Of a stretch of DNA of 48,815 bases, positions 5,227 to 24,283 are shown piece after piece. This stretch comes from Candidatus Aenigmatarchaeota archaeon (GTDB lineage: Archaea > Aenigmatarchaeota > Aenigmatarchaeia > Aenigmatarchaeales > JACQIB01), in contig JAWABM010000002.1 in NCBI GenBank assembly GCA_038999215.1, forward strand, positions 1-48,815, read 5' to 3'. The first letter of the stretch is position 1. The number at the start of each line of letters is the position of its first letter. A program made the translations under genes and the position numbers. Under the pieces are notes generated by a model that was not told where the DNA came from, did not search any database, and saw nothing but the letters and a program-made list of their open reading frames with translations.

Positions 5227-6432
5227 ATGCTGGAGCTGCTCCTGGCCCTCGCTTTCGGTATCCTTCTCGGCGTGATATGCGGAATAATGCCGGGCCTGCA
5301 CCCTAATAACACGATACCTATCATATTCGGCCTGTCGTTCCTCTTCGACCCGATGCAGGCAGCCGTCGTGCTGATAGCAGCGGGCGTATCGAACTCTTTC
5401 GTGAATTTCATACCTTCTATATTCGTGGGTGCTCCGGATGCCGGCGCAGAGCTATCCGCACTACCTGGCCACAGGATGCTTTTGGCCGGCAGGGGCTTCG
5501 AGGCGGTGCGCCTCACGGTGCTCGGCGGTTTGGGCGCTGTCCTGCTGTCGGTGGCGCTGCTGCCCGCGTTCTCCGTCGTGTTCCCGCTCCTTTACAGGCT
5601 GGCGCGGCCTGTGCTCCATTGGCTTCTGCTCGTCGTCGTCTTCTACATGGTTGCGGGTGAGGAAGGCCTGAAAGGCAAGGCGATCGCCCTGTATGTCATT
5701 GCTGTATCAGGCGCGCTCGGCTATTTTCTTCTTGATGTCGTGTCCGTCAATGGCGCACTGTTCCCTCTGCTCTCCGGCATGTTCGGCCTGCCCATGCTGC
5801 TGCTGGCTGTCAAGGACAAGGTCCGTCTGCCCGAAGGCATGTCGTTCGAGCACGAGAAGATAGGGAAGAAGGACCTGCTTTCAAGCGTCGGGGTGGGCAG
5901 CATTGCGGGAGTTCTCGCCGGGCTTCTGCCGGGCATCGGCAGCTCGCAGGCCACCGTGCTCGCGCAGGAGGCTGTCGGCCGAGGCTCGGACAGGAAGTTC
6001 CTGATAGCGATGGGCGGCGTGGCAGTTTCCGATGTCGTGTATTCGATAATCGCCCTTTACATCCTCGGGAACGCAAGGAGCGGGATAGCTGTCGCCGTCG
6101 GAAACCTTGTCTCCGTCGGGCTCGGCCAGGTGTTGCTCTTCCTCTCCGTCGTTCTGGCGGCCGCGGGCATCGGCGCCTGCATGACCCTCAAGATGTCCAG
6201 GCTGGCCGTCGCCTTTCTCAGAAGGGTCGATTATGCGAAGCTGTGCATGCTGACGTTCGCCGGAGTCCTTGCGATGACGGCCTGGTTCTCTGGCCCCGCC
6301 GGCGTTGCCATATCGCTCGTTGCCTTGAGCATAGGGCTGATACCGAACATCGCCGGCGTGAAGCGCAGCCACTGCATGGGCTGCCTGCTTGTTCCGACGA
6401 TAATGTTTTTTGCTCAGCTCAGTTTAGGCTGA
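5227..6432 (+). CDS. TctA-family / DUF112 integral membrane protein (putative tricarboxylate-type transporter permease)
   Basis: 401 aa and highly hydrophobic. Motifs GIMPGLHPNN and LPGIGSSQA resemble the two repeated PG(L/I)G motifs of the TctA family. Confidence 0.65.
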   Translation: MLELLLALAFGILLGVICGIMPGLHPNNTIPIIFGLSFLFDPMQAAVVLIAAGVSNSFVNFIPSIFVGAPDAGAELSALPGHRMLLAGRGFEAVRLTVLGGLGAVLLSVALLPAFSVVFPLLYRLARPVLHWLLLVVVFYMVAGEEGLKGKAIALYVIAVSGALGYFLLDVVSVNGALFPLLSGMFGLPMLLLAVKDKVRLPEGMSFEHEKIGKKDLLSSVGVGSIAGVLAGLLPGIGSSQATVLAQEAVGRGSDRKFLIAMGGVAVSDVVYSIIALYILGNARSGIAVAVGNLVSVGLGQVLLFLSVVLAAAGIGACMTLKMSRLAVAFLRRVDYAKLCMLTFAGVLAMTAWFSGPAGVAISLVALSIGLIPNIAGVKRSHCMGCLLVPTIMFFAQLSLG

Positions 6433-9079
6433 CGAACTTCCCCAGGGAGCCGTTGTGCGAGAAATAGACCTGCGAACCGCACTCCGGGCACATGCCTGTG
6501 AGCGGCGGCCGCTTCGATACCCATCTGCACTTCTTGCACGCAACCCCGTCATTGCCCCGCAGGGTGGTCTGGTCCGGAGACGGCTCCTTCGAGCCCATCG
6601 CGTCCAGCAGGCTGCGCTGTCTGCAGCCTTCCAGAAGCTCGGTCCGCGTTATGTTGCAGACCTCGAATATCCTCTCGACAGGAGGCAGCACCTGGTTCTC
6701 CGCGTAATACTGCGCATCTATCTCCATGCCCTTCTCTTTCGCGTACTCCGGCTCCTCCGCGCGCTTGGAGAGCATGTCGTTGCCCTTGATTATCACGTAG
6801 CCCAGCCGCTCCCCGACCATGTTCTGCCTGGTCGGGTCTCGCTCCTTTATCTTTTTCGCCAGCTCCACGTGCGGCTGCATTCCGTCATACGCGTCCAGAG
6901 ACTTGGTCACGCCTTTCACGACGGTCAGCTTCTCGAGCGGCACCCTGCCTTCGGCCAGGTCCTTGAGCACCTTGCGCACGTGCTGCGACGCCTTGCTGAT
7001 GTTCTGCTCCTTCAGCATTATGGATATGACTTCCTTCATCGTGTCCGAGGTGAGCTCGCACCAGTCGCGCCGCACTGTCTCGATTCCCTTCATAACTATC
7101 TTGTCCTTCCATTTGCCGTCCTTCTTCTCGAACGCCCATCCGGCATACCGCTTCTTCGTGAGTATCAGGAACGTGTTGAATATCTTCTCGAAGGCTATGC
7201 TCAGCCCGGGCAGCCTGGCAGTGATGAAGCTCGCTATCTCGTTGCCTGTCTGCTCGGCTATGTCAAGGTTGAGTATGTCAGTCTTCAGGAATATCGAGTC
7301 CGTGTCCCCGTATATCACCTTGACTGGGAAGTTGTCCTCAACGAGCTTCTTCGTGTTGATGATGTTTTCCCTTCCTATGCTCGTTATCGAGTTGGCTATT
7401 GCCATGAGGTAGAGCCTTGATCTTATGTAGCCTGTGTACCCGTAGAGGCTGTTTGCCATGGTCTTGAGCGCGAGCTGTTTTGCGTTGAGCTGCCTTGTCC
7501 TCTCGGCATTCGTTTCCTTCTTCATCTCCGCCTTCGCGCGCTTTCGCGCATCAGTCATGTCCCGGAGCATCTTGGGTAGTATCCCTTCGCGCACCTCCTT
7601 CTTCACGAACTTCGTTCCGTACGGAGACGTCACGTATTCGCTCGTCGAGTCGTCGTAGAGCACCGTCGTCGGGCAGATGTTGAACGCCATGATTATCGAC
7701 GGGTACAGCGACTGGAAATCCAGCACGAGCGTGCACCCGGACGAGTGCAGGCCGACAGCTGGCTCGAGCACTATCGCGCCTGTGAGGCCGATTTTCGCCC
7801 TTTCGCTGAGCCTCCTGCTTATTTCCGCCTGGTCCGGCTTGCATGGCATGAGCATGTCCGCCTTCCTGAACTCGTGCAGCAGCCTGCACTCATGCCTCTG
7901 CGTCTGCCCTCCGAACGCGTCCTGCAGCAGCAGCCCCGATATCTTTGAGAGCTCGAAGAATTTGTCCAGCAGCCCCTTGTCCAATACGAGCCTCATCGCC
8001 AGCTCGGAGTCGCGCCTGCAGTAGTCGACCAGCTTTTTCATATCGGATGTGTTGCCGTTCCAGAGCTTCTTTATTTCCCTCACCCCGCCTACGTCCAGCT
8101 TCTCCATCCCCAGCATCTCCTTCGCAACCGTCGCCAGGTTGTAGCGCTTGAAGCTTATCCATGGGTCCTTCTTGAGTATCTCGAACGGGTCCGCTATCAC
8201 TCTTCCTGTTATGTTGGTTATCATGCTGCCGGTCACCTTCCTTGTGTAAGGCCTCTTGTCCGCCCTTCCGAGGTCAGGCTTTATTTCCAGGGCTTCCATC
8301 CTTCCGAGCAGGTAGGGGATGTCGAAGTTGTTGATGTTGTAGCCCACGAGGACGTCGGGGTCGTATTCCTTCACTATGTCTATGAAGCGCTCTATCATCT
8401 CCTTCTCTCCGTTGAAGCCTGTGCAGTCGCTGTCGACAAAGGCCTGTTTCGAGAGCAGCACCATTGTCTTCTTTCCCTTGTATTCGGGGCTGAAATAGAG
8501 CGATATCATTATTATCGGGTCCCTGCCGGCCTCGGGCAGCCTGTCGCCTTCCGTGACGCACTCTATGTCGAGCGCCATGTACCGCAGAGGCACGTTGTCC
8601 GGCCTGTCTATCGGCTCTATCGATTCCGCCTCGATTGCCCTGCACTTCACTGCCGCGGTGCGCACCTGCTTGCCCTTTACGTCCGCCCAACCCATGCCGA
8701 ACAGGCCGTGGTCCACCAGGAAGCGGTAGGCAAACAGTATGTCCGCGTCGTAAGGGGTGCCGTATTTCTTCACAGCTTCCCTCATCTCCGGGACCTTCGA
8801 TGGGTCGGCGCACGTCGCCTTCAGCACCTTCACTGGCGATTTTGAATATCCCATAGGTAGGAACTTTTCCGCAACAGCCGCATTGGCGCCATGCCTCTTT
8901 AGTTCCTCTGTTATGGCCGGGAAATTCTTCTCGTCCGCATGCACGTAGAAGTAGGGCCTGAACTTGTCGTAGAACGCGCACACTGATGATCCGTCCTCCG
9001 TCTTTCCGTACAGCCTTATGACCGGCTTGCTGTTTATCATCGCGTAATCGCAATCGAGAATCTGCATCTGCATGCGCAT
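6419..9079 (-). CDS. polB: family B DNA polymerase with extra C-terminal CxxC-x15-CxxC zinc ribbon
   Basis: Exo I ALDIEC, Exo II YNINNFDIPYL, Exo III YCRRDSELA. Pol A LDFQSLYPSII, Pol B KQLALKTMANSLYGYTG, Pol C VIYGDTDSIF. C-terminal tail CKKCRWVSKRPPLTGMCPECG. Candidate starts are 9079, 9073 and 9067; MQILDCDY matches the usual MILDxDY start. Confidence 0.95.
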   Translation of the reverse strand: MRMQMQILDCDYAMINSKPVIRLYGKTEDGSSVCAFYDKFRPYFYVHADEKNFPAITEELKRHGANAAVAEKFLPMGYSKSPVKVLKATCADPSKVPEMREAVKKYGTPYDADILFAYRFLVDHGLFGMGWADVKGKQVRTAAVKCRAIEAESIEPIDRPDNVPLRYMALDIECVTEGDRLPEAGRDPIIMISLYFSPEYKGKKTMVLLSKQAFVDSDCTGFNGEKEMIERFIDIVKEYDPDVLVGYNINNFDIPYLLGRMEALEIKPDLGRADKRPYTRKVTGSMITNITGRVIADPFEILKKDPWISFKRYNLATVAKEMLGMEKLDVGGVREIKKLWNGNTSDMKKLVDYCRRDSELAMRLVLDKGLLDKFFELSKISGLLLQDAFGGQTQRHECRLLHEFRKADMLMPCKPDQAEISRRLSERAKIGLTGAIVLEPAVGLHSSGCTLVLDFQSLYPSIIMAFNICPTTVLYDDSTSEYVTSPYGTKFVKKEVREGILPKMLRDMTDARKRAKAEMKKETNAERTRQLNAKQLALKTMANSLYGYTGYIRSRLYLMAIANSITSIGRENIINTKKLVEDNFPVKVIYGDTDSIFLKTDILNLDIAEQTGNEIASFITARLPGLSIAFEKIFNTFLILTKKRYAGWAFEKKDGKWKDKIVMKGIETVRRDWCELTSDTMKEVISIMLKEQNISKASQHVRKVLKDLAEGRVPLEKLTVVKGVTKSLDAYDGMQPHVELAKKIKERDPTRQNMVGERLGYVIIKGNDMLSKRAEEPEYAKEKGMEIDAQYYAENQVLPPVERIFEVCNITRTELLEGCRQRSLLDAMGSKEPSPDQTTLRGNDGVACKKCRWVSKRPPLTGMCPECGSQVYFSHNGSLGKFVSLN

Positions 9080-9096
9080 ATATCAGCATCGCATGC

Positions 9097-9927
9097 TTAA
9101 GCGTTTTTCGTTTCCCTTGTCATCAGGTCGAGCTCCAGCGTGCAGCCCTTCGGGCAGCCGATTATTGTCGTGCCCTTGTAGTTCTGGACGAAGCGCTCCT
9201 TTGTCACTGCCAGAAAGATGTCCGGCGCCTCATCGAGGCAGTCGTTCGGCGGGTTGTTGATGTGCCTTCTTTTGAGGAGCTCGAGCGGGGCGTGCTTCTC
9301 TGCCACGCCAAGGGCGTTGCCTATTGCTCCGTAGTCCGCCTCATGCACCAATATCTTGACTCCGCAGCAGTCGTAGAGCCGAGAGCCCGAAAGCGGTATG
9401 TCCCTGCCGAGCACGAGCTTCGCAGGAGCTGTCGCCGGGCTGCGCAGGCACACGTCGGGAAACAGCACCTTCTCGGCTCTTATCCCTTCCGGAGAGGCGA
9501 AGCCCACCACGCCAACAACGTCCTCGTCCAGCAGCTTCGCACCAGTTATCAGCTTGGCCCTTCCGCTAAGGTCCTCTATGTAGCCGTCCCTCTTCGCGCC
9601 TATCACAGCGACAGCGCCTCGGCAGTTCTTTATGGAGACCGCGTTCTTCAGCTCGGCCTTGCCGAGCAGCATTTTCTGCAGCGTCTTGTACCTCTCCGTG
9701 TAGAGCCCTATGAGGTCTTGCATGCTGTACCTTGACGGGTTGGTGAAGTCCTTCACCAGCCTAGCCGCAGAGCAGAGCGACGTTATCTCGCCGGCGCTAA
9801 GCACGAGCGGTCTGTCGCTCATGGCCTTGAGCCGCTCAAACACCGCTGCGGAGACGCGCTCGTCCTTCAGAATCTCGGCCGCAGCCGGATCAATCATCAC
9901 CCCAAGCTCCATTATCTTTTTCAGCAT
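9097..9927 (-). CDS. degenerate PolD small-subunit (DP1) / eukaryotic polymerase B-subunit-like protein lacking phosphoesterase metal ligands
   Basis: 276 aa. OB-like segment AVAVIGAKRDGYIEDLSGRAKLITGAKLLDEDVVGVVGFASPEGIRAEKVLFPDV. C-terminal segment LELLKRRHINNP..LDEAPDIFLAVTKERFVQNYKGTTIIGC resembles, from my memory, Pyrococcus DP1 ELLKMRHLAP..VIEEVPDLVQMGHVHV..YRGVQLVNS. No DxH, GDxxDG, GNHD or GHxH motifs are present. Its ATG shares one base with the orc1 stop (TGATG), and its stop lies 17 nt before polB. Confidence 0.6.
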   Translation of the reverse strand: MLKKIMELGVMIDPAAAEILKDERVSAAVFERLKAMSDRPLVLSAGEITSLCSAARLVKDFTNPSRYSMQDLIGLYTERYKTLQKMLLGKAELKNAVSIKNCRGAVAVIGAKRDGYIEDLSGRAKLITGAKLLDEDVVGVVGFASPEGIRAEKVLFPDVCLRSPATAPAKLVLGRDIPLSGSRLYDCCGVKILVHEADYGAIGNALGVAEKHAPLELLKRRHINNPPNDCLDEAPDIFLAVTKERFVQNYKGTTIIGCPKGCTLELDLMTRETKNA

Positions 9928-11117
9928 CAGAATACTTGCTCCAAGCAGTCCTTCGCCTTCTTTATGACGGGCGGGGAAAGCGCCAGGTTTATCGTCCTTG
10001 TCCTTCCGTGCCTGCCTTTCGATATCACGCGCGTGGTTATTATCCCGAAAAGGTCCAGTTCAGCTATCAGGTCCGAAACGCGCCTTTGCGTCAGCGGTTT
10101 CAGCCCGGCCCTCCTGCAGTTGGTCTGATACAGGTCCACAACGTCGCCGGTGTCAAGGTTGCTGTTCTTTTCCGCTAGCTGTATTATCGAGTAAAGCACC
10201 ACTTTGCTCTGCTTCGGTTGCGCCTTTATCGTCTCTATTGTCCTGTCGGTGTCTATCTTGTCCTCTGCCGCATCCACATGATCTATCCTTATCTGGTCTG
10301 AGCCGTTGCGCTCCGCCAGCTCCGCCGCCACCCTGAGAAGGTCAAGGGCCCTTCGCGCATCGCCGTGCTCCTGCGCGGCCAACGCCGCGCACTTTGCGAG
10401 CACGCCATCGCCAACAGCCCCCTCCCTGAAGGCCATGTCCGCCCTCTGCTTGAGTATGTCCTGCAGCTGAACGGCATTGTACGGCGGGAACACCAGCTCC
10501 TCCTCGCTGAGGCTCGAGCGCACGCGCGGATCAAGGTTGTCGATGAAATTCAAGTCGTTTGTTATGCCCACAACGCACACTCGCGAGTTCTTAAGCTCCT
10601 GGTTTATGCGCGTAAGGTTGTAAAGCACTTCGTCGCCTGTCTTCCTTACCAGCGCGTCTATTTCGTCTATTATCAGTATCATCACCTGCTTTTGGCGGTC
10701 CAGGAGATTGAAGAATGCTGAATAGACTTGGTCGGTGGGCAGGCCTGTGAACGGAAGCTCCTCCCCAAGTTCCTTCGCTAAATATGCTATGAGACGGTAT
10801 TCGGTATCAGCCGAATGCTTCATCTTGCAGTTGGCGTATATGATTTTTATCTTGCTGTCCCGACTGGCCTTTTCGAGCTCAGCTGCCACCCTGCTGGCGA
10901 CCAGGGATTTTCCAGTGCCGGTTCTGCCGTATATGAATATGTTGCTCGGCCTTTCGCCTTTCAGTGCTGGCGCAAGTATCCTTGCTACATCCGCTATCTG
11001 CTTCTCCCTGTGCGGTATTGTCTCGGGCGTGAAGGAAATCGACAATGCGTTCCTGTTCGTTATGATGGGTTTTGCGTCCATGAACTGGTTGAACAGCTCC
11101 TGTATGTTTTGGCTCAT
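9927..11117 (-). CDS. cdc6: Orc1/Cdc6 replication initiator
   Basis: Walker A GRTGTGKS, Walker B LIIDEIDAL, a sensor region and a C-terminal winged helix (DLIAELDLFGIITTRVISKGRHGRTR). Start set at ATG 11117 (MSQNIQELFNQF), which is preceded by AAAGGAGGTG. The track ORF extends to 11183. Confidence 0.9.
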   Translation of the reverse strand: MSQNIQELFNQFMDAKPIITNRNALSISFTPETIPHREKQIADVARILAPALKGERPSNIFIYGRTGTGKSLVASRVAAELEKASRDSKIKIIYANCKMKHSADTEYRLIAYLAKELGEELPFTGLPTDQVYSAFFNLLDRQKQVMILIIDEIDALVRKTGDEVLYNLTRINQELKNSRVCVVGITNDLNFIDNLDPRVRSSLSEEELVFPPYNAVQLQDILKQRADMAFREGAVGDGVLAKCAALAAQEHGDARRALDLLRVAAELAERNGSDQIRIDHVDAAEDKIDTDRTIETIKAQPKQSKVVLYSIIQLAEKNSNLDTGDVVDLYQTNCRRAGLKPLTQRRVSDLIAELDLFGIITTRVISKGRHGRTRTINLALSPPVIKKAKDCLEQVF

Positions 11118-11357
11118 TTGTGCACCTCCTTTTCTTGTGGGATTCGGGTTTAATTGCGTGAAGGTATATAAACTTTTCTCCATGTGAAGCAGGGGGGTTG
11201 GCGTGAAGTTCCATGGGAAATCATGGGGTTCACATGACTCCTAGAAAAAATGGTCCTGAAGCTTAAAATAAGCCTTTTTACGGCTTTTGCCGTTCTGTGA
11301 ACTTCATTTTAGTGGTGTCATGTTCATTTTGTTCATTTTCAGTTCACAAATGACTAT

Positions 11358-11372
11358 ATAACAATGTTATAA
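11358..11372. promoter_or_regulatory. 15-bp palindrome TATAAC-AAT-GTTATA (copy 1 of 4)
   Basis: Read directly from the sequence. Perfect 6-bp arms with a 3-nt spacer, inside the oriC-like region. Confidence 0.6.
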
Positions 11373-11477
11373 TTGGTTCCATGAGCAGAAATTTCCACAG
11401 GAAAGCCATACCCCTTACTTTCCTTTGAATATTGCAAATTATTATCGATAACGTCAGGAACGGTACCTTTATTTCCT

Positions 11478-11492
11478 ATAACGATGTTATAT
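11478..11492. promoter_or_regulatory. 15-bp palindrome TATAAC-GAT-GTTATA (copy 2 of 4)
   Basis: Read directly from the sequence, 120 bp from copy 1 and inside the oriC-like region. Confidence 0.6.
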
Positions 11493-11554
11493 ACATACAT
11501 ACGCAACAAAATCTAATTATAAAAAGCACTTCGACAAGAAATCATGGGGAGGCC

Positions 11555-12304
11555 TTATTTGCTGGTGTACGCTGCTTTGAGGGCCTCGATAAGGATTTTC
11601 GGATCGCTGCCTTTGGAGATTGCCAGAGGTATCCTTTCTATTTCAGCTATCCTTCTAGCCAAGTCATCAACAGTGCTTGCGCCCTGTAGTACCACCAAAC
11701 CGGGCTTGAGGTTGGTCACTTTCAGGGCGACCATGCTGCTTCTTCCGCGGTTGGCGCCTGTGAATATCAGCGCCCTTTCGGTGGTCAGGCCGTATAGTTT
11801 TACCAGCTCGGTCGGCGGCAGCTCCATTATGGCCTTCATGCTGTCTATGACCGTATAGCCGTATATCTGGCCGTTCGGATCTTCCTTTGTCTGCATTTCC
11901 GCGCCTATTGCCTTGCAGAATTCCTTTATGGATATTGGCATTGAGAATTCCTTCAGGTCGAGCACAGCGTCGGAGAGCATGTTTTTGGACGGCACGACGG
12001 AGAATTCCTTGATTATCTTCCCTCCGGCTTTCTCATCCAGGGTTATCATAGCGTCCACTATCTTCTTTACCACGCGTATTCCCGGGCTCTTCCTTCTGCT
12101 GTTCTCATAGTCGCTTATCACCGAAGGCATGACAGACATCTGCTCCGCCAGCACGCGCTGCGGTATCTTGAATATGTTCCTCCATTTCTGTATGGTTTTT
12201 CCTGCGTCAGAACTCAGCACTATCTCGCCCGCGATCCTTTTCGCGACAATTTCGCGCGTCAGGCCGTCTTCCTCGACCATTCCAAACATATTGTCGAAGT
12301 ACAT
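11555..12304 (-). CDS. XRE-type helix-turn-helix transcriptional regulator with C-terminal uncharacterised domain (conserved archaeal type)
   Basis: HTH segment TIQKWRNIFKIPQRVLAEQMSVMPSVISDYENSRRKSP, followed by a domain of roughly 170 aa; 249 aa. Confidence 0.65.
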   Translation of the reverse strand: MYFDNMFGMVEEDGLTREIVAKRIAGEIVLSSDAGKTIQKWRNIFKIPQRVLAEQMSVMPSVISDYENSRRKSPGIRVVKKIVDAMITLDEKAGGKIIKEFSVVPSKNMLSDAVLDLKEFSMPISIKEFCKAIGAEMQTKEDPNGQIYGYTVIDSMKAIMELPPTELVKLYGLTTERALIFTGANRGRSSMVALKVTNLKPGLVVLQGASTVDDLARRIAEIERIPLAISKGSDPKILIEALKAAYTSK

Positions 12305-13539: not shown

Positions 13540-13685
13540 AAAGCTTGGTTCCGTATATACATGTAGTACTGTTAAGGTCACGGAGAGATCACGTATCATG
13601 ATCATACGGCCGCATGGCGCGGCGCCACGTATGCGTAAGCGCGTTTTTTCTTCGCAGACCTGCAGAAGGCAAGGGTGATGTTGAA

Positions 13686-14894
13686 ATGGGAAAATTGGCG
13701 CAAACTTCGTCGAAATACATAATTTACGCTAAGTTTGAGGCAGACGGCACCGTCGAGAAGCCCGATGTTATAGGCGCGGTGTTCGGTCAGACGGAGGGGC
13801 TCCTTGGTCAGGAGATGGATCTGAGGGAGCTGCAGCAGACAGGAAGGATAGGCAGGATAGACGTGGAGCTCAGGACAGAGGGCGGGAAGACGTCCGGGAT
13901 GATAATAATCCCTTCTTCCCTTGACTCATCTGAGACCGCGATGATTGCCGCAACAATCGAGACCATTGAGCGCGTCGGCCCATGCAAATCCAAAATAACC
14001 ATAGACAGGATCGACGATGTCCGCATCGAGAAGCGCAGCTACGTCGTCAGCAGGGCGAAGGAGCTGCTCGGCAAGATGGTCCATGAGACCGGCGTGCCTG
14101 AGGCGCAGGAGATTTCCGAGGAAATCAAAAGCGCCGTGCGCAGCTCCGAGGTTGTGGAGTACATGGGTCTGCCCGCCGGTCCTGATGTGGAGACGAGCGA
14201 AAAGATAGTGATCGTTGAGGGCCGGGCTGACGTGGTCAATCTGCTCAGGGCCGGCATAAGGAACGCGATAGCAATCGAGGGCACGTCGGTGCCTGAGGTT
14301 ATAAAGGAAATATCGAAGGAGCGCGAGACTACCGCGTTCCTTGACGGCGACCGCGGAGGGGACCTTATATTGAAGGAGCTCGCAGCGGTGGCGAACATCG
14401 ATTTCGTTGCGCGCGCACCCGAGGGCATGGAGGTCGAGGAGCTCAGCAAGAAGGAGATATTCAAGGCCCTCAGGGACAAGGTTCCCCTGTCCGACGCTAC
14501 TGGAAAAAAGTACGATATATCCAAGAAGCAGCATCAGCGACAGCAGGAGCCGCAGCGCGAGGAAGCCTATGAGGAGAGGCAGCGGCCGAAGCCGAAGGTG
14601 GAGCCTGAAAAGCTGCAGAAGCTGAAGCAGATTCTGGAGAGCCTGACTGGCACGAGGGCGGCATACTTCCTGGACAGGGAAGGCAGCCCTATAGGCAAGG
14701 TGCCTGTCAAGGAGATGTTCAACGCCATAAGGGAGCTGGACGCCGAATACATGCTCCTCGACGGCGACATAGATCAGAAGCTCGTAGGATTCTGCTCCAA
14801 GAAGGGCATCAAGTGCCTCGTGGGTATGAGGATAAAGGGCAGGATAAAGGTCCCGAGCAACATAGAGGTCCTGACGATGAAGGACCTTTCCTGA
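13686..14894 (+). CDS. dnaG: archaeal DnaG primase (Toprim domain)
   Basis: Start trimmed to ATG 13686 (MGKLAQTSSKYIIYAKFEADGTVEKPDVIGAVFGQTEGLLG), preceded by GGTGAT. Toprim segment IVIVEGRADVVNLLRAGIRNAIAIEGT...FLDGDRGGDLI. Confidence 0.9.
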   Translation: MGKLAQTSSKYIIYAKFEADGTVEKPDVIGAVFGQTEGLLGQEMDLRELQQTGRIGRIDVELRTEGGKTSGMIIIPSSLDSSETAMIAATIETIERVGPCKSKITIDRIDDVRIEKRSYVVSRAKELLGKMVHETGVPEAQEISEEIKSAVRSSEVVEYMGLPAGPDVETSEKIVIVEGRADVVNLLRAGIRNAIAIEGTSVPEVIKEISKERETTAFLDGDRGGDLILKELAAVANIDFVARAPEGMEVEELSKKEIFKALRDKVPLSDATGKKYDISKKQHQRQQEPQREEAYEERQRPKPKVEPEKLQKLKQILESLTGTRAAYFLDREGSPIGKVPVKEMFNAIRELDAEYMLLDGDIDQKLVGFCSKKGIKCLVGMRIKGRIKVPSNIEVLTMKDLS

Positions 14895-19047: not shown

Positions 19048-20733
19048 ATGCTCGAGCTCATCGACCGCGATGCTGCCGGCCGCATATGCAGGTGGGCCAT
19101 AAGCAGGCATTCCATAACCACGCCGAACATCTGCGTGGTCGTCAATCCGAACAGGCTGACCGTTCCCCCGGAGGAGCTGAAGCGGGAATTTGGGGCCGAA
19201 ATCATCATAACAAACTCCTATATTATAAGGAGGTCCGACAGGCTAAGGCCCCTGGCAGAAGCGGGCCTCCATCAGATGCTGGGTTGGGGCGGACCCGTTT
19301 ACACCGACAGCGGCACGTTCCAGATGTATTCCCAAGGAAACGTGGACGTCAATCCGGACGAGATAATAGGCTTCCAGAAGAAGATAGGCTCGGACATAAT
19401 CACTCCCCTTGATATGTTCACCCGGCCGGACGACAATTTGAAGATGGCCAAAGCCAATCTGGCCGAGACAGTGAGGCGCGTAAAGGCCGCCCGCGGCGAG
19501 GTGAAGGACAGGCTTCTCGTCGGCCCGATACAGGGCGGCCGCTTCCTCGACCTGCGCAGGAAGGCCTGCAAGGAGGTCGCGAAGCTCAGCCCGGACGTGT
19601 TCGCGATAGGCGGCATAGTCCCGCTGATGGAGCAGTACCGCTTCGCGGAGCTCGCGGACATAGTGCTCGCATGCAAGGCCGAGCTCCCTGCGCACGCGCC
19701 TGTGCACGCCTTCGGTGCAGGCCATCCCATGGTTTTCGCCTTGCTAGCGGCCTTCGGCTGCGACCTTTTCGATAGCGCCATGTACAGCCTGGCAGCCGAC
19801 CGCGGCGCCTACCTCACGGTCAGCGGCACGCGCCAGCTCTCCGATATTTCCGAGTTCCCCTGCTCCTGCCCGCTCTGCTCTAAGCACGAGCCGAAAGGCG
19901 TGCTCGGCCTGCCTGAGCAGGAGAGGAAGGCCTGGCTTGCCAGGCACAATCTTTACGTCACCTTCGAGGAGCTGCGCACCGTGCGCCAAGCCATCCGCGA
20001 GAACAGCCTGTGGGAGCTTGTCCAGGAGCGCAGCCGGGCGCATCCGGCGCTCCTGGAAGCGTTGGCGCACGCGCTCAAGGCCCATTCAAAACTGCTTTTG
20101 GAAAAGGACCTGTTCTCGAAAAGGTCCGCCCTGATGTGGTCCGGCCCGGAGACTGCTGTGCGGCCCGAGGTCGTCCGCGCTAAACAGCTGCTCAGGCGCG
20201 TCCGCGCGAAGAACGCCGTGGCAAAGGAGCCTTTCGGTCGCGTGCCCGCTGCGCTCATGCACGTCTATCCCTTCGGCCAGTCGGTAATGCCGGCTGCTCC
20301 GAAATTCAGGCCTGCCAAGCCTGAGGACGTTGTCAGGTCTGTCGTGCGCTATCAGTACGGTTCGGATCTCAAGGCGAAGAGCATAAGCGTCGAAGTCTCA
20401 AGAAAGACCGGGATGGTGAGACGGGTCTGGCAGAAAAAGAAGCTGCTCGGTACCGTGAGGCCTCATGACGGCCTCTTCCTTCCGACAATGGAAGGCGCCA
20501 AGCTTTTGAAGATGAAGAAGGTGCTCATAGATGACCCTGAAGTGGCGAAGTACGTGCGGGAAGGCAGGAGCGTTTTCGCGAAGTTCGTCTCGAAGGCCGA
20601 TGACATAGTTCCGGGAGAGGAGGTGGCAGTGTTCCACGGCAGGGAGCTTATTGCGGTGGGTTCGGCTTTGCTTTCAGGCAAAGAGATGAAAGAGATGAGG
20701 CGCGGCACTGCCGTCAGCGTGCGCGCTTCCTAG
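19048..20733 (+). CDS. tgtA: archaeosine tRNA-guanine transglycosylase (ArcTGT) with C-terminal PUA domain
   Basis: TIM-barrel TGT motifs (ITNSYII, YTDSGTFQM, AIGGIVP), the Zn site FPCSCPLCSKHEP, and a C-terminal PUA-like segment (VAKYVREGRSVFAKFV...GEEVAVFH...LIAVGSALLSGKEM); 561 aa. Confidence 0.9.
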   Translation: MLELIDRDAAGRICRWAISRHSITTPNICVVVNPNRLTVPPEELKREFGAEIIITNSYIIRRSDRLRPLAEAGLHQMLGWGGPVYTDSGTFQMYSQGNVDVNPDEIIGFQKKIGSDIITPLDMFTRPDDNLKMAKANLAETVRRVKAARGEVKDRLLVGPIQGGRFLDLRRKACKEVAKLSPDVFAIGGIVPLMEQYRFAELADIVLACKAELPAHAPVHAFGAGHPMVFALLAAFGCDLFDSAMYSLAADRGAYLTVSGTRQLSDISEFPCSCPLCSKHEPKGVLGLPEQERKAWLARHNLYVTFEELRTVRQAIRENSLWELVQERSRAHPALLEALAHALKAHSKLLLEKDLFSKRSALMWSGPETAVRPEVVRAKQLLRRVRAKNAVAKEPFGRVPAALMHVYPFGQSVMPAAPKFRPAKPEDVVRSVVRYQYGSDLKAKSISVEVSRKTGMVRRVWQKKKLLGTVRPHDGLFLPTMEGAKLLKMKKVLIDDPEVAKYVREGRSVFAKFVSKADDIVPGEEVAVFHGRELIAVGSALLSGKEMKEMRRGTAVSVRAS

Positions 20734-23700
20734 CCTTCTTTGCTTTCTTTTTGGTCTTCTTTTTCGGCTTGCCGCGCGTCACGTAGAACACGAGCGCGCA
20801 TGCCGCTATTGCGGCCGATGCCAGCGTGCCCGTCGCAGGCATTATGAAGTAGCCTGTCGGGCTATCGGTGGCCGTTTCTTCTGTTTCTAATGCGATGGCG
20901 AAGTAGCTGAAGCCCGGTGTGGTCGCTATGTAATAGGTCTTTTCTCCGTCGCTGCTTTCCTTCTTTGTAGGCAGTGATGCCCAGTAACCGTCATGCCAGC
21001 GCTTGAGCGTTATCTTGCCGGGGTCGTAATTGTTCGTGGCCAGCCAACCGTTGTCGATTGCGAATCTTATTGACGCCTCTGCTATTTCTTCGTCCGTGGC
21101 GCTGTTGTCAATCTGCATGTATTGGTATACCGTTCCGTGGAGTTCGTCTGTCTCAGACGGCCTTTCAGGCAAGTGTTTTATGTGTATTTTCATGTCCTGC
21201 AAGTCCTTCGCCGGGGTTATCAGTATCTGCACGACAGACGTCTTTTCGGCGTTTATTTCCTCCGTTTCGCCTTTTTTGCAGCCGCCCTTGCATGCCTCTT
21301 TCTTTTCCTCGTAATAAAAGGTGGTCGGGCAGTCGTCTTGGTTGATGGCGCCGTCGCCGTTCGTGTCCGTTACGGGTATTACGTCCCCGGCGTGATGGGA
21401 GTGGTCGTTCTTTCCGTTCCCGTCCGCTGCGTTCTCGCTCACGCAAAGGAAATTATAGGGATTTGTTTCCGATGAGGTTGCATGGCATATAGGTATCTTG
21501 TCCTTGCCGCAGCCGCTTTTGTTTTCCTCCTTTTTGGTCTCGTTAGCGGAGGTATTGCCGCTCCTGAAGTCGTCCTCATTGTATTTTTTTCTCTCCGTAT
21601 CGTTAGCCGGCGGTCCTCTGAGCGTCAGCGGCAGCCAGTCCCTCCATTTCGGAACCTCGGTGTCGCCGATTCCGTCGCTGTCAATGTCATATCCGCTGTA
21701 ATCGTGCCAGTAATTGCCCGCTATGAATTTGCCGCCAAGTATGTTCGTTCCGCCGGCCTTAGTGACGTTCCACTGGTTGTTCAGCTGCAGGTGCGTGGCG
21801 TTGCACTGGAAGACCACGTCCTCCGCGTTGTCGAAGTAGTTGTCCCATATGACGTTGTCTACGGTGTCGTTGCTCTTGAACAGGAGGCCTATTTTCCCTC
21901 CGACGAACCTGTTGCGCGTCACGTTGTTCCTCATCGTCGCTATCGATCCTCCGAGCTTGAGGCCCCTTGAGCAGTCGAAGCTGTTTCCGCTTATGCTGTT
22001 TTCGTTGCCCTCTATGTGCACGCATTCGTCGTCTCCCGCCTTGTTAACGGAATATATCTTGTTGTCGGCCACAACAGACCCTCTGGTTCCGGACGTGAAG
22101 AAGGCCAGGTCTATGCCGGTCGCGCCCGTGAAGTTGATTGCGTTGCCGATTATTTTGACGCTTGGCGCAGGATTGGTCTGCGATTGTGAATATATCGTGC
22201 CGTTGATTATCGTGCTGTCCCTGAGCGTGTTGTTGTTCTGGTAGCCCCACGGGAAATAGAAGTCCCCTGTTATGCGGCTGCCCTTAACGACATTGTCGGC
22301 TCCGGAAAGTTTGAAACCTGCGTTGGCCGTTATGTCCCGCAGCTCGTTCCTTCCGCCGTATACCTCTGGCGCAGCAGTGCCGAACGTCAGGTTCCAGGCA
22401 GTGCTTTCGTTCGTCTGGAACTTCAGGGATTTAAGCGTCATGTCGTGGGCGCTGTTGTAAAGTCCGCCCTCGATAATGAGGCCGTCGAGCTCGTTGCCTG
22501 CGATGTCCGCGTTTGACGTGCTGCCAAGATATATTGTGGTAAGTCTGTTGTTCAGTATCTTCGCCGACTGCGAGCTGTTTATGCTCAGGCCGTCCATCGT
22601 GTTGCCTGTTATTGTTGCGTCCGAACCGATAATGCCGACGGCGCAGTTCGTGAACGTGCTGCCGGTCAGTTCGGTGATGTCCGATCGCATGTTCAGCGAG
22701 CAATCGTTCATCTCCGAGTTTCTCACCCTTATTATGGTCTTTCCTTCGGAGCTGAGGCTCCAAGAGCTTGATTGCGCATAGACGTTCGAGTCCTCTATGT
22801 AGAGCTTGCCGTATTCCTTCACTGTCACCGTCCCGAAGGTGACGTTGCAGTTTGTGAAGTTGTAGGTCCTTCCGGCCTCCACGGTCAGCGTGCCGAATGT
22901 CTGGTTGCAGTTCTCGTAAGTATAGGGCGGAAGCACAAGCGGCAGGTAGTCATTGTGGTGCGGCAGGTTGGTGTCTCCTATCCCGTCCCCGTCAAGGTCC
23001 TCGCCGACATAGTCCCACCACCAGTTCCCCCCGAGCCAGCTGCCGCCGATTATGTTCGTCGCAAGCGTCTTGGTGATGTTGAAGATGTTGCTCGCGTCTA
23101 TGCCGGACCCTATGACATAAAAATAGTTGTCCCAGAACAGGTTGCCCGAGGATCCGTACTGGAGTTTCATCGCGAGGTTGACGTCGGTGAAGTTGTTGGA
23201 GCTTATGTTGTTGCCGTCCGAATTGGATATCTCCATGGCGACGTAGGTCTTTCCAGTGTCGGTCCCGCCGAACACGTTGTTCCTTACCACGTTGTTGTCC
23301 GAGGGCCCATGGAACTTGATGCCGACATACCTGCAATGCAGTTCGTTGTTTTCTATTCTGTTGTTGTGGCCGTAGAGGTAGATGCAGTATGAGTCGCCCG
23401 ATGCGGTGGCATTTATCTTGTTGCCGGTTATCTCTGCATAGGCCAGCGGCTTTATCGTTGCCACGCCTATGGCGCTCGCCAGGTGCGATGTCATGGTTAT
23501 GGTGTTGTTGATGAGCCTGAACCAGGGCGCGTCGCCTGCGTGCTGCGAGGCGACGCTTACAGCGCCGTTTATCGTGTTTTCAATGATAGTGTTGTTCTCG
23601 TTGTAGCCTATCGCGAGGCTGAGCCCGCTCATGGTGTTGTTCTGTATCCAGGCGTGGCCGCCCGTGAGCTTCAGCCCGCCGAGAACGCTGTTCAACAGCG

Positions 23701-24022
23701 TGCTGGAGTTGCCGCTGAACCAGACGTCCGATGAGTATCCGCTGACGTTGCAATTCTTCACGTTCGTGCGGTCCTTGCCCGAAACTATCCCATAACCTGT
23801 TCCATTCCCGACTATCTGCGCCCATCCGCAGTCCAGCGACACATCGCTCGCGTTTATTATTATGGCGCCGTCGCCGTTCGCATCGGTCACGTAGCACGGC
23901 GTCTCGTTGGCAGAAAGCGTCGTATCGGAAGTTATCGCGGTATCATCAGTGATGTTGCAAGCGCCCAGCACCATGCCTGGGAGCAGGAACAGTACGATTG
24001 TAAAAATTACCCCCCATTTCAT
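20714..24022 (-). CDS. large secreted/surface-anchored protein: signal peptide, two right-handed beta-helix (PbH1/NosD-like) modules, Cys/His-rich linker, PGF-pre-PGF-like domain, C-terminal TM anchor with poly-Lys/Arg tail
   Basis: Start set at ATG 24022 (MKWGVIFTIVLFLLPGMVLGA). The two modules end in GGNWWWDYVGEDLDGDGIGDTNLPHHNDYLPL and AGNYWHDYSGYDIDSDGIGDTEVPKWRDWLPL. Very many N-x-S/T sequons. Near the C-terminus: TYYIATTPGFSYFAIA, then ASAAIAACALVFYV and KPKKKTKKKAKKARKRAR. Confidence 0.85.
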   Translation of the reverse strand: MKWGVIFTIVLFLLPGMVLGACNITDDTAITSDTTLSANETPCYVTDANGDGAIIINASDVSLDCGWAQIVGNGTGYGIVSGKDRTNVKNCNVSGYSSDVWFSGNSSTLLNSVLGGLKLTGGHAWIQNNTMSGLSLAIGYNENNTIIENTINGAVSVASQHAGDAPWFRLINNTITMTSHLASAIGVATIKPLAYAEITGNKINATASGDSYCIYLYGHNNRIENNELHCRYVGIKFHGPSDNNVVRNNVFGGTDTGKTYVAMEISNSDGNNISSNNFTDVNLAMKLQYGSSGNLFWDNYFYVIGSGIDASNIFNITKTLATNIIGGSWLGGNWWWDYVGEDLDGDGIGDTNLPHHNDYLPLVLPPYTYENCNQTFGTLTVEAGRTYNFTNCNVTFGTVTVKEYGKLYIEDSNVYAQSSSWSLSSEGKTIIRVRNSEMNDCSLNMRSDITELTGSTFTNCAVGIIGSDATITGNTMDGLSINSSQSAKILNNRLTTIYLGSTSNADIAGNELDGLIIEGGLYNSAHDMTLKSLKFQTNESTAWNLTFGTAAPEVYGGRNELRDITANAGFKLSGADNVVKGSRITGDFYFPWGYQNNNTLRDSTIINGTIYSQSQTNPAPSVKIIGNAINFTGATGIDLAFFTSGTRGSVVADNKIYSVNKAGDDECVHIEGNENSISGNSFDCSRGLKLGGSIATMRNNVTRNRFVGGKIGLLFKSNDTVDNVIWDNYFDNAEDVVFQCNATHLQLNNQWNVTKAGGTNILGGKFIAGNYWHDYSGYDIDSDGIGDTEVPKWRDWLPLTLRGPPANDTERKKYNEDDFRSGNTSANETKKEENKSGCGKDKIPICHATSSETNPYNFLCVSENAADGNGKNDHSHHAGDVIPVTDTNGDGAINQDDCPTTFYYEEKKEACKGGCKKGETEEINAEKTSVVQILITPAKDLQDMKIHIKHLPERPSETDELHGTVYQYMQIDNSATDEEIAEASIRFAIDNGWLATNNYDPGKITLKRWHDGYWASLPTKKESSDGEKTYYIATTPGFSYFAIALETEETATDSPTGYFIMPATGTLASAAIAACALVFYVTRGKPKKKTKKKAKKARKRAR

Positions 24023-24283
24023 ACAAATGTTTAGGTGGCGCGCATTTAAATACCTTTTCATTACAGCGAAGTAGCAACAAGCAACAATTGTCGATTTGTG
24101 CTTGCCGGCGAAGCCTATTTCGGGCTATAATGATTGCTGCGCTCGGAAAGAATTGAGGGCAGCCCCCCGGTGTTGAAAAGAGCTGTAATGCATCGATAAG
24201 AAAAGGTCTTTCCTGAGTGTGCATGGCAACCAAATCTCATATTCAGATAGCAAAATTGCGGTGAAATGCCTATAAGCAGCCTA

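What the first reader, a model, noticed from the sequence alone, without database searches (positions are those of the whole stretch)
9097..9927. Truncated, catalytically dead DP1 / eukaryotic B-subunit-like gene wedged between orc1/cdc6 and polB
Seen: a 276-aa product with an OB-like core (LLDEDVVGVVGFASPEGIRAEKVLFPDV) and a C-terminal block LELLKRRHINNP..LDEAPDIFLAVTKERFVQNYKGTTIIGC. From memory, that block lines up with Pyrococcus DP1 ELLKMRHLAP..VIEEVPDLVQMGHVHV..YRGVQLVNS. The calcineurin-type metal-ligand motifs (DxH, GDxxDG, GNHD, GHxH) are missing; the GHVH position reads AVTK. Most of the phosphoesterase middle is deleted. The gene is tightly coupled: TGATG with the orc1 stop, and 17 nt before polB. 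Established: eukaryotic Pol alpha/delta/epsilon/zeta B-subunits are inactivated DP1 homologues, and they dock onto the Cys-rich C-terminal domain of a family-B catalytic subunit. In archaea DP1 normally partners PolD (DP2), not PolB. Inference: this is a PolB plus inactivated B-subunit pair in an archaeon, which is the eukaryote-like arrangement. I cannot verify whether this has been described for this lineage.
Basis: partly seen in the sequence, partly recalled or inferred. Interest (0 to 1): 0.8.

Follow-up and report, generated by a model that had tools for sequence, protein, structure and literature searches.

The report
Dead DP1 subunit beside archaeal PolB

Summary
ORF 9097-9927(-) encodes 276 aa, overlaps the orc1/cdc6 stop (TGATG) and ends 17 nt before polB. 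A profile of 42 short homologues matches canonical DP1 (hhalign 99.9%, E 2e-34). It also matches solved DP1 (T. kodakarensis, E 2e-16). An AlphaFold model (pLDDT 94.9) finds only DP1 and eukaryotic Pol alpha/delta/epsilon/zeta B-subunits in the PDB.

A 112-115-residue block holding phosphoesterase motifs I-III is deleted, and the motif IV and V ligands are replaced. The protein cannot be a metallo-nuclease.

The downstream PolB has intact exonuclease and polymerase motifs, and its best solved match is human Pol delta. It ends in a single Cys4 finger homologous to DP2 Zn-III, the DP1-docking module (profile E 5.5e-9), including the KRPP loop.

orc1 followed by the DP1-like gene is conserved in 9 of 9 related loci, with PolB always within 6 kb.

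Kazlauskas et al. 2020 (PMC7544198) described Aenigmarchaeota group-B6 PolB with a DP2-type tail plus inactive DP1. A 2025 study (PMC12680538) reported the interaction by AlphaFold3 and yeast two-hybrid.

What remains new here is small: the halved phosphoesterase domain, the Zn-III-only tail and the gene order mirroring cdc6-DP1-DP2.

The parts
9097..9927 (-). Gene for the 276-aa non-catalytic DP1/B-subunit homologue. NCBI names it 'hypothetical protein QXU82_00420' from a Candidatus Aenigmatarchaeota MAG.
   Evidence: ORF. Source name. Homology to DP1. Confident model and DP1/B-subunit fold matches.
9763..9927 (-). Residues 1-55: four-helix N-terminal domain equivalent to DP1N. In Thermococcus this is the GINS (Gins51C)-binding module of DP1, and it is shared with the Pol alpha and Pol epsilon B-subunits.
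   Evidence: The NCBIfam DP1 alignment starts at residue 2. The hhalign alignment covers the N-terminus. The model shows helices 2-7, 14-19, 23-35 and 45-52. G9 and P14 are invariant in the family. The function of DP1N comes from PMC9023282; GINS binding here is inferred.
9457..9630 (-). Residues ~100-157: OB-fold barrel, ending in the conserved FPD linker.
   Evidence: Five strands in the model: 104-113, 116-118, 123-127, 137-145 and 148-155. This is the best-aligned stretch against solved DP1. E118, D119, T121, G122, D136, V137, G139 and G142 are nearly invariant or invariant.
9100..9450 (-). Residues 160-276: remnant (~117 aa) of the calcineurin-type phosphoesterase domain. Motifs I-III are deleted and the motif IV and V ligands are replaced. 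The ELLKRRH helix, the PDIF strand and the YKGxTII strand are kept.
   Evidence: Alignment to canonical DP1 and counts of deleted blocks. hhalign. PDB profile alignment of the C-terminal block.
6419..9079 (-). Family-B DNA polymerase of 886 aa. It is Pol-delta-like (group B6 in Kazlauskas et al.) and has intact exonuclease I-III and polymerase A-C motifs.
   Evidence: Pfam PF00136 and PF03104. Best solved match is the human Pol delta catalytic subunit, E 2.8e-113. Motifs DIE, NINNFD, YCRRD, DFQSLYPS, KTMANSLYG and YGDTDS are present.
6422..6544 (-). PolB residues 846-886: a single Cys4 zinc ribbon (C848, C851, C864, C867) with a KRPP loop (856-859). It is homologous to DP2 Zn-III, the module that docks into the OB/PDE groove of DP1. 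No helical bundle follows it.
   Evidence: NCBIfam DP2 models, E 9e-4 and 2e-3. phmmer to T. kodakarensis DP2 residues 1129-1166, E 1.1e-3, pairing 'RRPPLTGKCPKCGG' with 'KRPPLTGMCPECGS'. Profile of 8 PolB tails against the PDB: 6knb_B E 5.5e-9 and 6hms_B E 3.5e-7. All 8 tails match DP2 models. The role of Zn-III and its KxRRxP loop comes from PMC6355029.
9927..11183 (-). orc1/cdc6 replication initiator gene, translationally coupled (TGATG) to the DP1-like gene.
   Evidence: NCBIfam NF001625, E 2e-153, above its curated cutoff. orc1 followed by the DP1-like gene is adjacent in 9 of 9 distinct loci.
11184..11554 (.). AT-rich (37% GC) intergenic region upstream of orc1 with ORB-like boxes; the probable replication origin.
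   Evidence: Sequence. TTCCATGGGAAATCATGGGG at 11209 and TTCGACAAGAAATCATGGGG at 11530; the second box is conserved in L001 and L003. The origin function is inferred.
11555..12304 (-). Conserved HTH_3 gene that flanks the origin/orc1/DP1-like cluster in relatives that carry the upstream flank.
   Evidence: Pfam HTH_3. An orthologue is present in L001, L003, L004, L006, L007 and L009.

Best explanation
The 276-aa protein is a non-catalytic, structurally reduced DP1. It serves as the 'B-subunit' of the adjacent Pol-delta-like family-B polymerase.

Shown here: it keeps the DP1 N-terminal four-helix domain, the OB fold and about half of the phosphoesterase fold, and it has lost every metal-ligand motif. 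The PolB downstream has intact polymerase and proofreading motifs and ends in a single zinc ribbon homologous to DP2 Zn-III, including its basic K/R-R-x-P loop.

Inferred mechanism:
- The PolB zinc ribbon inserts its KRPP loop into the groove between the OB fold and the phosphoesterase remnant, as DP2 Zn-III does in PolD and the second Zn module does in eukaryotic Pol alpha and Pol epsilon. This gives a heterodimeric replicase.
- Proofreading comes from PolB itself, so the DP1 nuclease was dispensable and decayed.
- The retained DP1N domain probably tethers the polymerase to GINS/CMG, as DP1N and Dpb2N do.
- Co-transcription and translational coupling with orc1 next to the probable origin supply initiator, adaptor and polymerase together.

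The same arrangement is published for Aenigmarchaeota, and the DP1-PolB tail interaction was reported there by yeast two-hybrid.
For: - Homology: NF003118 E 4.8e-6. Family profile against canonical DP1, hhalign 99.9%, E 2.2e-34. Solved DP1s at E 1.9e-16 and 2.7e-12.
- Fold: pLDDT 94.9. All 34 top PDB matches are DP1 or eukaryotic B-subunits.
- Inactivation: motifs I-III sit in a 112-115-residue deletion, and motifs IV and V are replaced across the 46 short family members.
- Real gene under selection: 813 clusters at 50% identity match the profile, and the best 150 are all 195-387 aa long.
- Partner: the PolB tail is DP2 Zn-III, and it is conserved in all 8 PolBs that accompany a DP1-like gene.
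- PolB exonuclease and polymerase motifs are intact.
- Linkage: orc1 followed by the DP1-like gene in 9 of 9 loci. PolB lies directly downstream in 5 and within 6 kb in the other 4.
- Literature: PMC7544198. PMC12680538, AF3 and Y2H interaction in an Aenigmatarchaeota pair, in a lineage that lacks DP2. PMC6355029, Zn-III docking at the OB/PDE interface. PMC9023282, DP1N binds Gins51C.
Against: - No complex was modelled or measured for this particular pair.
- The PolB tail lacks the helical bundle that contacts the phosphoesterase domain in PolD and in eukaryotic enzymes.
- Half of that domain is gone, so the interface must be smaller than in any solved complex.
- The DP1-like protein evolves faster than its neighbours: 60%, 52% and 25% identity, against 86%, 75% and 56% for Orc1 and 82%, about 72% and 44% for PolB.
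- Linkage to orc1 is stricter than linkage to PolB, since PolB is on the opposite strand in 4 of 9 loci.
- Absence of DP2 from this genome could not be checked, because only this 48.8-kb contig is available.
Confidence: 0.85

Rival explanations
1. The protein works mainly with Orc1 at the origin, or as an OB-fold single-stranded-DNA binder. On this view it is an initiation accessory factor, not a stable polymerase subunit, and its position next to PolB is secondary.
For: orc1 followed by the DP1-like gene is the strictly conserved pair (9 of 9 loci; start and stop overlap here). PolB is on the other strand, 2-5 kb away, in 4 of 9 loci. cdc6-DP1 linkage next to oriC is widespread in Euryarchaeota and prompted the proposal that Cdc6 recruits DP1 (PMC2643942). 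The OB fold gives weak structural matches to RPA OB domains (ranks 37-38).
Against: The cdc6-DP1 linkage also exists where DP1 is a bona fide PolD subunit, so it does not argue against a polymerase role. Every accompanying PolB keeps the DP1-docking Zn-III module. A DP1-PolB tail interaction is reported for this lineage (PMC12680538). The two roles are not mutually exclusive.
Confidence: 0.08
2. The gene is a decaying remnant of DP1 left behind after DP2 was lost. It has no remaining function and is on its way to becoming a pseudogene.
For: There are large deletions, complete loss of catalytic motifs, and faster sequence divergence than in the flanking replication genes.
Against: The reading frame is intact and of conserved length in hundreds of divergent clusters. 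Residues in the N-domain, OB fold and C-terminal block are invariant. The predicted fold is very confident and compact. Translational coupling to orc1 is conserved. The docking module on PolB is kept.
Confidence: 0.04
3. The protein is still a nuclease or phosphoesterase that uses a non-canonical active site built from the remaining half-domain.
For: A His (H195) is conserved in the four closest sequences. The remnant keeps part of the calcineurin-like sandwich.
Against: H195 does not align with any metal-ligand position and is not conserved beyond the closest clade. Motifs I-III are physically absent, and motifs IV and V are replaced by Y-K/R-P and I/V-S-x-E in the family. PolB carries its own intact proofreading site.
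Confidence: 0.03

Closest known systems
[quoted passage not shown] Described in Kazlauskas et al. 2020 (PMC7544198); interaction tested in PMC12680538.
   Same: Same phylum. The DP1 homologue is inactive. The PolB is Pol-delta-like and has a single DP2 Zn-III-type motif at its C-terminus. Physical DP1-PolB tail interaction is reported for a member of the lineage.
   Different: Nothing essential differs. This sequence belongs to an extra-short subclade (275-289 aa, against a family median of about 320 aa) that is only 23-35% identical to most family members. The main texts of the two papers do not mention the halved phosphoesterase domain or the orc1-DP1-PolB gene order.
Archaeal PolD small subunit DP1 (NCBIfam NF003118; PDB 5IHE, 6KNB).
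   Same: Same domain order: DP1N, then OB, then phosphoesterase. Clear sequence and fold homology. Same genomic habit of sitting directly after cdc6/orc1 beside oriC.
   Different: No nuclease motifs, and about 155 residues of the phosphoesterase domain are missing. The score is far below the family cutoff (25.8 against 445 bits). The partner is a family-B polymerase rather than DP2.
Eukaryotic B-subunits: POLA2, POLD2/Pol31 and POLE2/Dpb2, bound to the CTD of the catalytic subunit (PDB 4Y97, 5VBN, 6TNY).
   Same: A catalytically dead DP1 homologue paired with a proofreading-capable family-B polymerase that docks through a C-terminal zinc module. The N-terminal helical domain is of the Pol alpha and Pol epsilon B-subunit type.
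   Different: Eukaryotic B-subunits keep a full-size (inactive) phosphoesterase fold. Their partner CTDs have two metal modules plus a helical bundle. Here the fold is halved and the tail has one zinc ribbon only.
Baldrarchaeia (Asgard) PolB3-DP2CTD with DP1 (PMC12680538).
   Same: An archaeal lineage that lacks DP2, keeps DP1 and has a PolB fused to a DP2-derived tail that binds DP1.
   Different: According to that paper the Baldrarchaeial tail is full-length and resembles DP2 and eukaryotic CTDs, whereas the Aenigmatarchaeota tail is shorter and 'degenerate'.

Membership tests
DP1, active small subunit of PolD (NCBIfam NF003118 / Pfam PF04042 + PF00149) | N-terminal DP1N helical domain | tested here: met
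   The NF003118 alignment starts at residue 2. hhalign covers the N-terminus. The model has four helices in residues 2-52.
DP1, active small subunit of PolD (NCBIfam NF003118 / Pfam PF04042 + PF00149) | OB fold preceding the phosphoesterase domain | tested here: met
   Profile alignment to the OB region of solved DP1, E 1.9e-16. The model has a five-stranded barrel. Fold matches.
DP1, active small subunit of PolD (NCBIfam NF003118 / Pfam PF04042 + PF00149) | Complete calcineurin-type phosphoesterase domain with five metal-ligand motifs (DxH, GDxxDG, GNHD, H, GHxH) | tested here: not met
   Motifs I-III lie in a 112-115-residue deletion. Motifs IV and V are replaced; GHVH reads AVTK.
DP1, active small subunit of PolD (NCBIfam NF003118 / Pfam PF04042 + PF00149) | Score above the curated family thresholds | tested here: not met
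   NF003118 gives 25.8 bits against a cutoff of 445. No Pfam family matches at E<=1, including PF04042.
DP1, active small subunit of PolD (NCBIfam NF003118 / Pfam PF04042 + PF00149) | A DP2 catalytic partner encoded in the genome | not testable with these tools
   Only this 48.8-kb contig is available, and it holds no DP2. The 1115-aa ORF is a PGF-pre-PGF surface protein. The literature states that Aenigmatarchaeota lack DP2.
Eukaryote-type B-subunit system (inactive DP1 homologue + family-B polymerase with Cys-rich CTD) | DP1-like OB + phosphoesterase fold without catalytic residues | tested here: met
   Fold matches to POLE2 (7pfo_A, E 2.6e-9), POLD2 (6tny_B, E 9.1e-9), Pol31 and POLA2. Catalytic motifs are absent. 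The phosphoesterase fold is only about half-size.
Eukaryote-type B-subunit system (inactive DP1 homologue + family-B polymerase with Cys-rich CTD) | The partner is an active family-B polymerase carrying a DP2-related zinc module at its C-terminus | tested here: met
   PolB motifs are intact. The tail is homologous to DP2 Zn-III. The gene lies 17 nt downstream.
Eukaryote-type B-subunit system (inactive DP1 homologue + family-B polymerase with Cys-rich CTD) | CTD with two metal modules (CysA, CysB) and a helical bundle | tested here: not met
   There is one Cys4 motif only, and 19 residues follow it. PMC12680538 calls the Aenigmatarchaeota tail degenerate and shorter.
Eukaryote-type B-subunit system (inactive DP1 homologue + family-B polymerase with Cys-rich CTD) | Physical complex between the two proteins | not testable with these tools
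   No multimer prediction is offered. Yeast two-hybrid and AlphaFold3 evidence is published for an Aenigmatarchaeota pair (PMC12680538), not for this one.
Aenigmarchaeota inactive-DP1 / B6-aenigma1 PolB pair (Kazlauskas et al. 2020) | Aenigmarchaeota origin, inactive DP1, and co-occurring Pol-delta-like PolB with a single DP2-type zinc motif | tested here: met
   NCBI source name. Family members come from other Aenigmarchaeota MAGs. Best solved match of the PolB is Pol delta. Single Zn-III motif.
Aenigmarchaeota inactive-DP1 / B6-aenigma1 PolB pair (Kazlauskas et al. 2020) | Placement with the paper's named reference sequences in a phylogeny | not tested
   The reference sequences (the GCA_002789635 DP1 and OIN85950) were not on hand, and no tree was built.

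The most novel reading that the evidence does not exclude
This subclade may hold the smallest B-subunit/CTD interface known. Both partners look reduced in step: the polymerase tail is cut down to Zn-III alone, and the DP1 phosphoesterase domain is cut down to the half that borders the OB fold. On the same reading, the orc1-DP1like-PolB operon beside oriC is the old cdc6-DP1-DP2 operon in which the polymerase part of DP2 was replaced in place by a PolB, leaving only the DP2 3' end. That would be a preserved intermediate of the PolD-to-eukaryotic-type holoenzyme transition. The published papers do not discuss the halved domain or the gene order in their main texts.
Probability: 0.3. Interest if true: 0.5.

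Novelty: already known. Interest (0 to 1): 0.3.

Why it matters
Eukaryotic replicative polymerases are chimeras: a family-B catalytic subunit docked through a DP2-derived zinc tail onto a dead DP1. Aenigmatarchaeota show that all of these steps can occur inside an archaeon, which is why the system drew attention in 2020 and 2025. This window adds one more clean, complete example, with origin, initiator, adaptor and polymerase in a row. It also makes a practical point: Pfam and NCBI pipelines label the whole short family 'hypothetical', so replication-gene surveys that rely on PF04042 will report these genomes as lacking DP1. The minimal interface could be a convenient model for defining what a B-subunit needs in order to bind its polymerase. 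The central discovery, however, is not new.

Tried and rejected
- A Pfam scan of the 276-aa protein at E<=1 gave nothing. Single-sequence phmmer against the PDB also gave nothing. Homology appeared only with NCBIfam and with family profiles.
- The search for related loci with the 42-sequence alignment failed because no stretch was conserved enough. With the 5-sequence alignment the GTDB genome scan returned only 3 loci, too few for a distribution survey.
- Foldseek against viral predicted structures gave no significant match, so a mobile-element origin finds no support here. It is not excluded.
- I considered whether a stand-alone Metallophos gene next to orc1 in relatives L004 and L007 is the split-off half of the DP1 phosphoesterase domain. 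BLASTP to canonical DP1 shows nothing beyond the generic GNHD motif (E 0.17), and NCBIfam places it with YfcE/SbcD-type enzymes. It is also absent from this window. Rejected.
- I considered H195 as a surviving motif IV histidine. It does not align with that position. Rejected.
- The 1115-aa ORF 20714-24061 was checked as a possible DP2. It is a PGF-pre-PGF/NosD-like surface protein.
- No complex was modelled. The structure tool folds one chain of window sequence only, so I did not submit an artificial fusion. The second structure job and the third large protein search were left unused because the sequence evidence was already decisive.
Full report
**Observation**

Its ATG shares one base with the TGA of an upstream ORF (9927..11183), giving TGATG. 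Its TAA lies 17 nt before the first ATG of an 886-aa ORF (6419..9079). The upstream ORF is an Orc1/Cdc6 initiator (NCBIfam NF001625, E 2e-153, above its cutoff). The downstream ORF is a family-B polymerase (PF00136 E 2e-111; PF03104 E 3e-35). The window is an entire 48.8-kb contig of a Candidatus Aenigmatarchaeota MAG, in which the gene is annotated 'hypothetical protein QXU82_00420'. Housekeeping genes around it mark the contig as chromosomal: AlaRS, SecD, DnaG, archaeosine tRNA-guanine transglycosylase and two ribonucleotide reductases.

**Is it a DP1 homologue?**

Pfam finds nothing, and single-sequence phmmer against the PDB finds nothing. The NCBIfam model for the PolD small subunit does match residues 2-163 (E 4.8e-6, far below the family cutoff).

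A word-indexed search found only four close relatives (52-60% identity, 275-280 aa) and one distant one. Searching again with their alignment recovered about 45 short proteins of 251-352 aa. None has a Pfam domain, and several come from Aenigmarchaeota MAGs. Behind them came canonical DP1s of 472-519 aa carrying PF04042, PF00149 and PF01336 (E 2.6e-16 to 2.7e-5).

An exhaustive profile search of 1.84 billion cluster representatives gave 813 matches at E<=1e-3, and the best 150 are all 195-387 aa long. This is therefore a large, conserved family of short proteins, not a one-off truncation.

Three further tests agree:
- hhalign of the short family against canonical DP1 gives probability 99.9%, E 2.2e-34, over 307 columns.
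- The family profile hits solved DP1s: T. kodakarensis 6knb_A at E 1.9e-16 and P. abyssi 5ihe_A at E 2.7e-12.

**Structure**

With the 51-sequence alignment, AlphaFold2 gives a very confident model (mean pLDDT 94.9, pTM 0.87). It shows:
- four N-terminal helices (residues 2-52);
- a long helix (69-88);
- a five-stranded OB barrel (104-155);
- a compact beta-rich C-terminal domain with two helices (170-275).

Foldseek against the PDB returns, as its 34 best matches, only P. abyssi or T. kodakarensis DP1 and eukaryotic B-subunits. These include POLE2 7pfo_A, POLD2 6tny_B, Pol31 in Pol zeta, Dpb2 and the Pol alpha B-subunit, with E from 2.4e-10 to 1.9e-3 (33 of them at or below 1e-3). Generic metallophosphoesterases and RPA OB folds appear only after that.

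**Catalytic state**

In the alignment with canonical DP1s:
- A block of 112-115 residues is missing after residue 179. It holds motif I (SDxHxGS), motif II (GDxVDG) and motif III (GNHD).
- Three further blocks of 13, 12 and 17 residues are absent.
- The motif IV position (YHG) reads Y-K/R-P in most of the short family and has no counterpart in this protein.
- The motif V position (GHVH) reads AVTK here and I/V-S-x-E in the family.
- H195, conserved in the four closest sequences, does not align with a ligand position.

No metal ligand survives. About 117 residues of a roughly 270-residue phosphoesterase domain remain. They include the ELLKRRH helix, the PDIF strand and the YKGxTII strand, and these carry family-invariant residues (L218, R221, P235, G252) that are also conserved in active DP1. 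The missing part is the first half of the domain rather than its middle.

**The partner**

The PolB has intact exonuclease motifs (DIE, NINNFD, YCRRD) and polymerase motifs (DFQSLYPS, KTMANSLYG, YGDTDS). Its best solved relative is the human Pol delta catalytic subunit (E 2.8e-113), ahead of Thermococcales PolB. This fits the 'Delta-like' group B6 of Kazlauskas et al.

After the thumb it carries a 67-residue tail with one Cys4 motif: C848-x2-C851 ... C864-x2-C867. Evidence that this tail is DP2 Zn-III:
- It matches the C-terminus of DP2 in two NCBIfam models (E 9e-4 and 2e-3).
- It aligns to T. kodakarensis DP2 residues 1129-1166, pairing KRPPLTGMCPECGS with RRPPLTGKCPKCGG.
- I extracted the tails of the eight PolBs that accompany DP1-like genes in related loci. 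All keep the motif C-x-K-C-x3-[YS]-[RK]-[RK]-x-P-L-x-G-x-C-x(1,2)-C-G.
- Their profile hits DP2 Zn-III in the PDB at E 5.5e-9 and 3.5e-7, with nothing else significant.
- All eight tails match DP2 family models, best E 3.4e-10.

In the PolD structure, Zn-III with its KxRRxP loop sits in an acidic groove at the OB/phosphoesterase interface of DP1, and a helical bundle contacts the phosphoesterase domain (PMC6355029). Here only 19 residues follow the zinc ribbon, so the helical bundle is absent.

**Genomic context**

I compared nine distinct loci: the window, L001, L003 (same as L009), L004 (same as L005), L006, L007, L008, L010 and L011. Findings:
- orc1 followed by the DP1-like gene is adjacent and co-directional in every locus.
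- PolB follows directly on the same strand in five loci. One of these is a distant member whose DP1-like protein is only 25% identical (L010).
- In the other four, a TctA gene intervenes and PolB lies 2-5 kb away on the opposite strand. This looks like a simple inversion of the TctA-PolB segment.
- An HTH gene and an AT-rich spacer precede orc1.

The spacer here (11184-11554, 37% GC) holds ORB-like boxes: TTCCATGGGAAATCATGGGG and TTCGACAAGAAATCATGGGG. The second is conserved in L001 and L003. It is probably the replication origin.

The cdc6-DP1 pair beside oriC is the most recurrent replication-gene linkage in Euryarchaeota, and in Pyrococcus it continues into DP2 (PMC2643942). The order here is the same, with PolB in the DP2 position.

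The DP1-like protein diverges faster than its neighbours. Identity to the window is 60%, 52% and 25%, against 86%, 75% and 56% for Orc1 and 82%, about 72% and 44% for PolB. This fits a scaffold freed of catalytic constraint.

**Mechanism (mostly inferred)**

The protein most likely acts as a non-catalytic second subunit of PolB.
- The PolB zinc ribbon docks at the OB/phosphoesterase-remnant groove.
- PolB supplies the proofreading.
- The DP1N domain probably links the polymerase to GINS/CMG, as shown for Thermococcus DP1N-Gins51C and yeast Dpb2N-Psf1 (PMC9023282).

Loss of the CTD helical bundle and loss of half the phosphoesterase fold would be a coordinated reduction of the interface. This is an inference that I could not test, because no multimer prediction or model coordinates were available.

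Three rivals are less likely; the reasons are given under each one:
- a primarily Orc1-linked or ssDNA-binding role;
- a functionless relic;
- a cryptic nuclease.

**Comparison with the literature**

Kazlauskas et al. 2020 (PMC7544198) reported that group-B6 PolBs of Aenigmarchaeota carry a CTD with one ('B6-aenigma1') or two metal motifs most similar to DP2. They also reported that most Aenigmarchaeota lack DP2, that an 'Aenigma_GB_GCA_002789635-like' DP1 group is inactive, and that eukaryotic B-subunits might derive from such a group.

A 2025 study (PMC12680538) makes four relevant statements:
- The Aenigmatarchaeota PolB tail is a shorter, degenerate DP2CTD.
- The two-motif 'aenigma2' sequences are Baldrarchaeial contamination.
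- DP1 binds PolB-DP2CTD in both clades, by AlphaFold3 and yeast two-hybrid.

Neither main text mentions the halved phosphoesterase domain, truncation, operons or Orc1 linkage. Their supplementary figures could not be read.

**Verdict**

The locus is a clean orthologue of a known system, from an extra-short subclade that annotation pipelines miss. The residual open points are modest in interest and testable with the steps listed: co-minimised interface, possible in-place replacement of DP2 in the cdc6-DP1-DP2 operon, and GINS tethering.

Noticed in passing
window 11184-11554: AT-rich (37% GC) spacer upstream of orc1 with ORB-like boxes: TTCCATGGGAAATCATGGGG at 11209, the palindromic TTCCACAGGAAA at 11393, and TTCGACAAGAAATCATGGGG at 11530. 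A 17-nt inverted repeat (TATATAACAATGTTATA) lies at 11355 and 11477. The 11530 box is conserved in the same place in L001 and L003. This is probably the chromosomal replication origin.
   Followed up: partly
L003 6867-10781 (same as L009 8867-12769): The orthologous PolB in a close relative is 1304 aa long because an intein (PF14890) interrupts it near window-PolB residues 587-593, at the YGDTDS motif C region. The window's PolB has no intein.
   Followed up: no
window 6596-6622 (PolB residues 820-828): A conserved Q-x-x-[LI]-x-[DE]-x-[IVAM] stretch (RQRSLLDAM) sits between the thumb and the zinc ribbon in all eight PolB tails. From memory, Thermococcales PolB has its C-terminal PIP box (QxxLxxWL) at about this position. 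If so, the zinc module was appended after a degenerate PCNA-binding motif. Not tested.
   Followed up: no
L004 3739-4428; L005 3291-3974; L007 5706-6386: In more distant Aenigmatarchaeota loci a 226-229-aa stand-alone metallophosphoesterase (YfcE/SbcD-like) lies between the HTH gene and orc1, divergent from orc1. It shows no specific similarity to the DP1 phosphoesterase domain, and it is absent from this window.
   Followed up: partly
L006 8924-9316: In one relative, a 130-aa OB-fold gene (PF01336) overlaps the stop of the DP1-like gene and sits between it and TctA. Its role is unknown.
   Followed up: no
window 36776-39118 and 39781-41868 (both minus strand): Two ribonucleotide reductases of different classes lie side by side. 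One is an anaerobic class III NrdD. The other is a B12-dependent class II enzyme with an N-terminal ATP-cone-like segment.
   Followed up: no
window 20714-24061 (minus strand): This 1115-aa ORF has NosD-like beta-helix repeats and a PGF-pre-PGF domain, so it is a likely surface protein. I checked it only because its size suggested DP2.
   Followed up: partly
window 5227-6432 (+) and related loci: A TctA-family membrane protein gene always accompanies the orc1/DP1-like/PolB cluster. Its position and orientation relative to PolB differ between two arrangements, consistent with a single inversion of the TctA-PolB segment.
   Followed up: partly
window 13614-14894 (+): An archaeal DnaG (NF003108, E 1e-145) lies 2.4 kb from orc1, so several replication-related genes cluster around the putative origin.
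   Followed up: no
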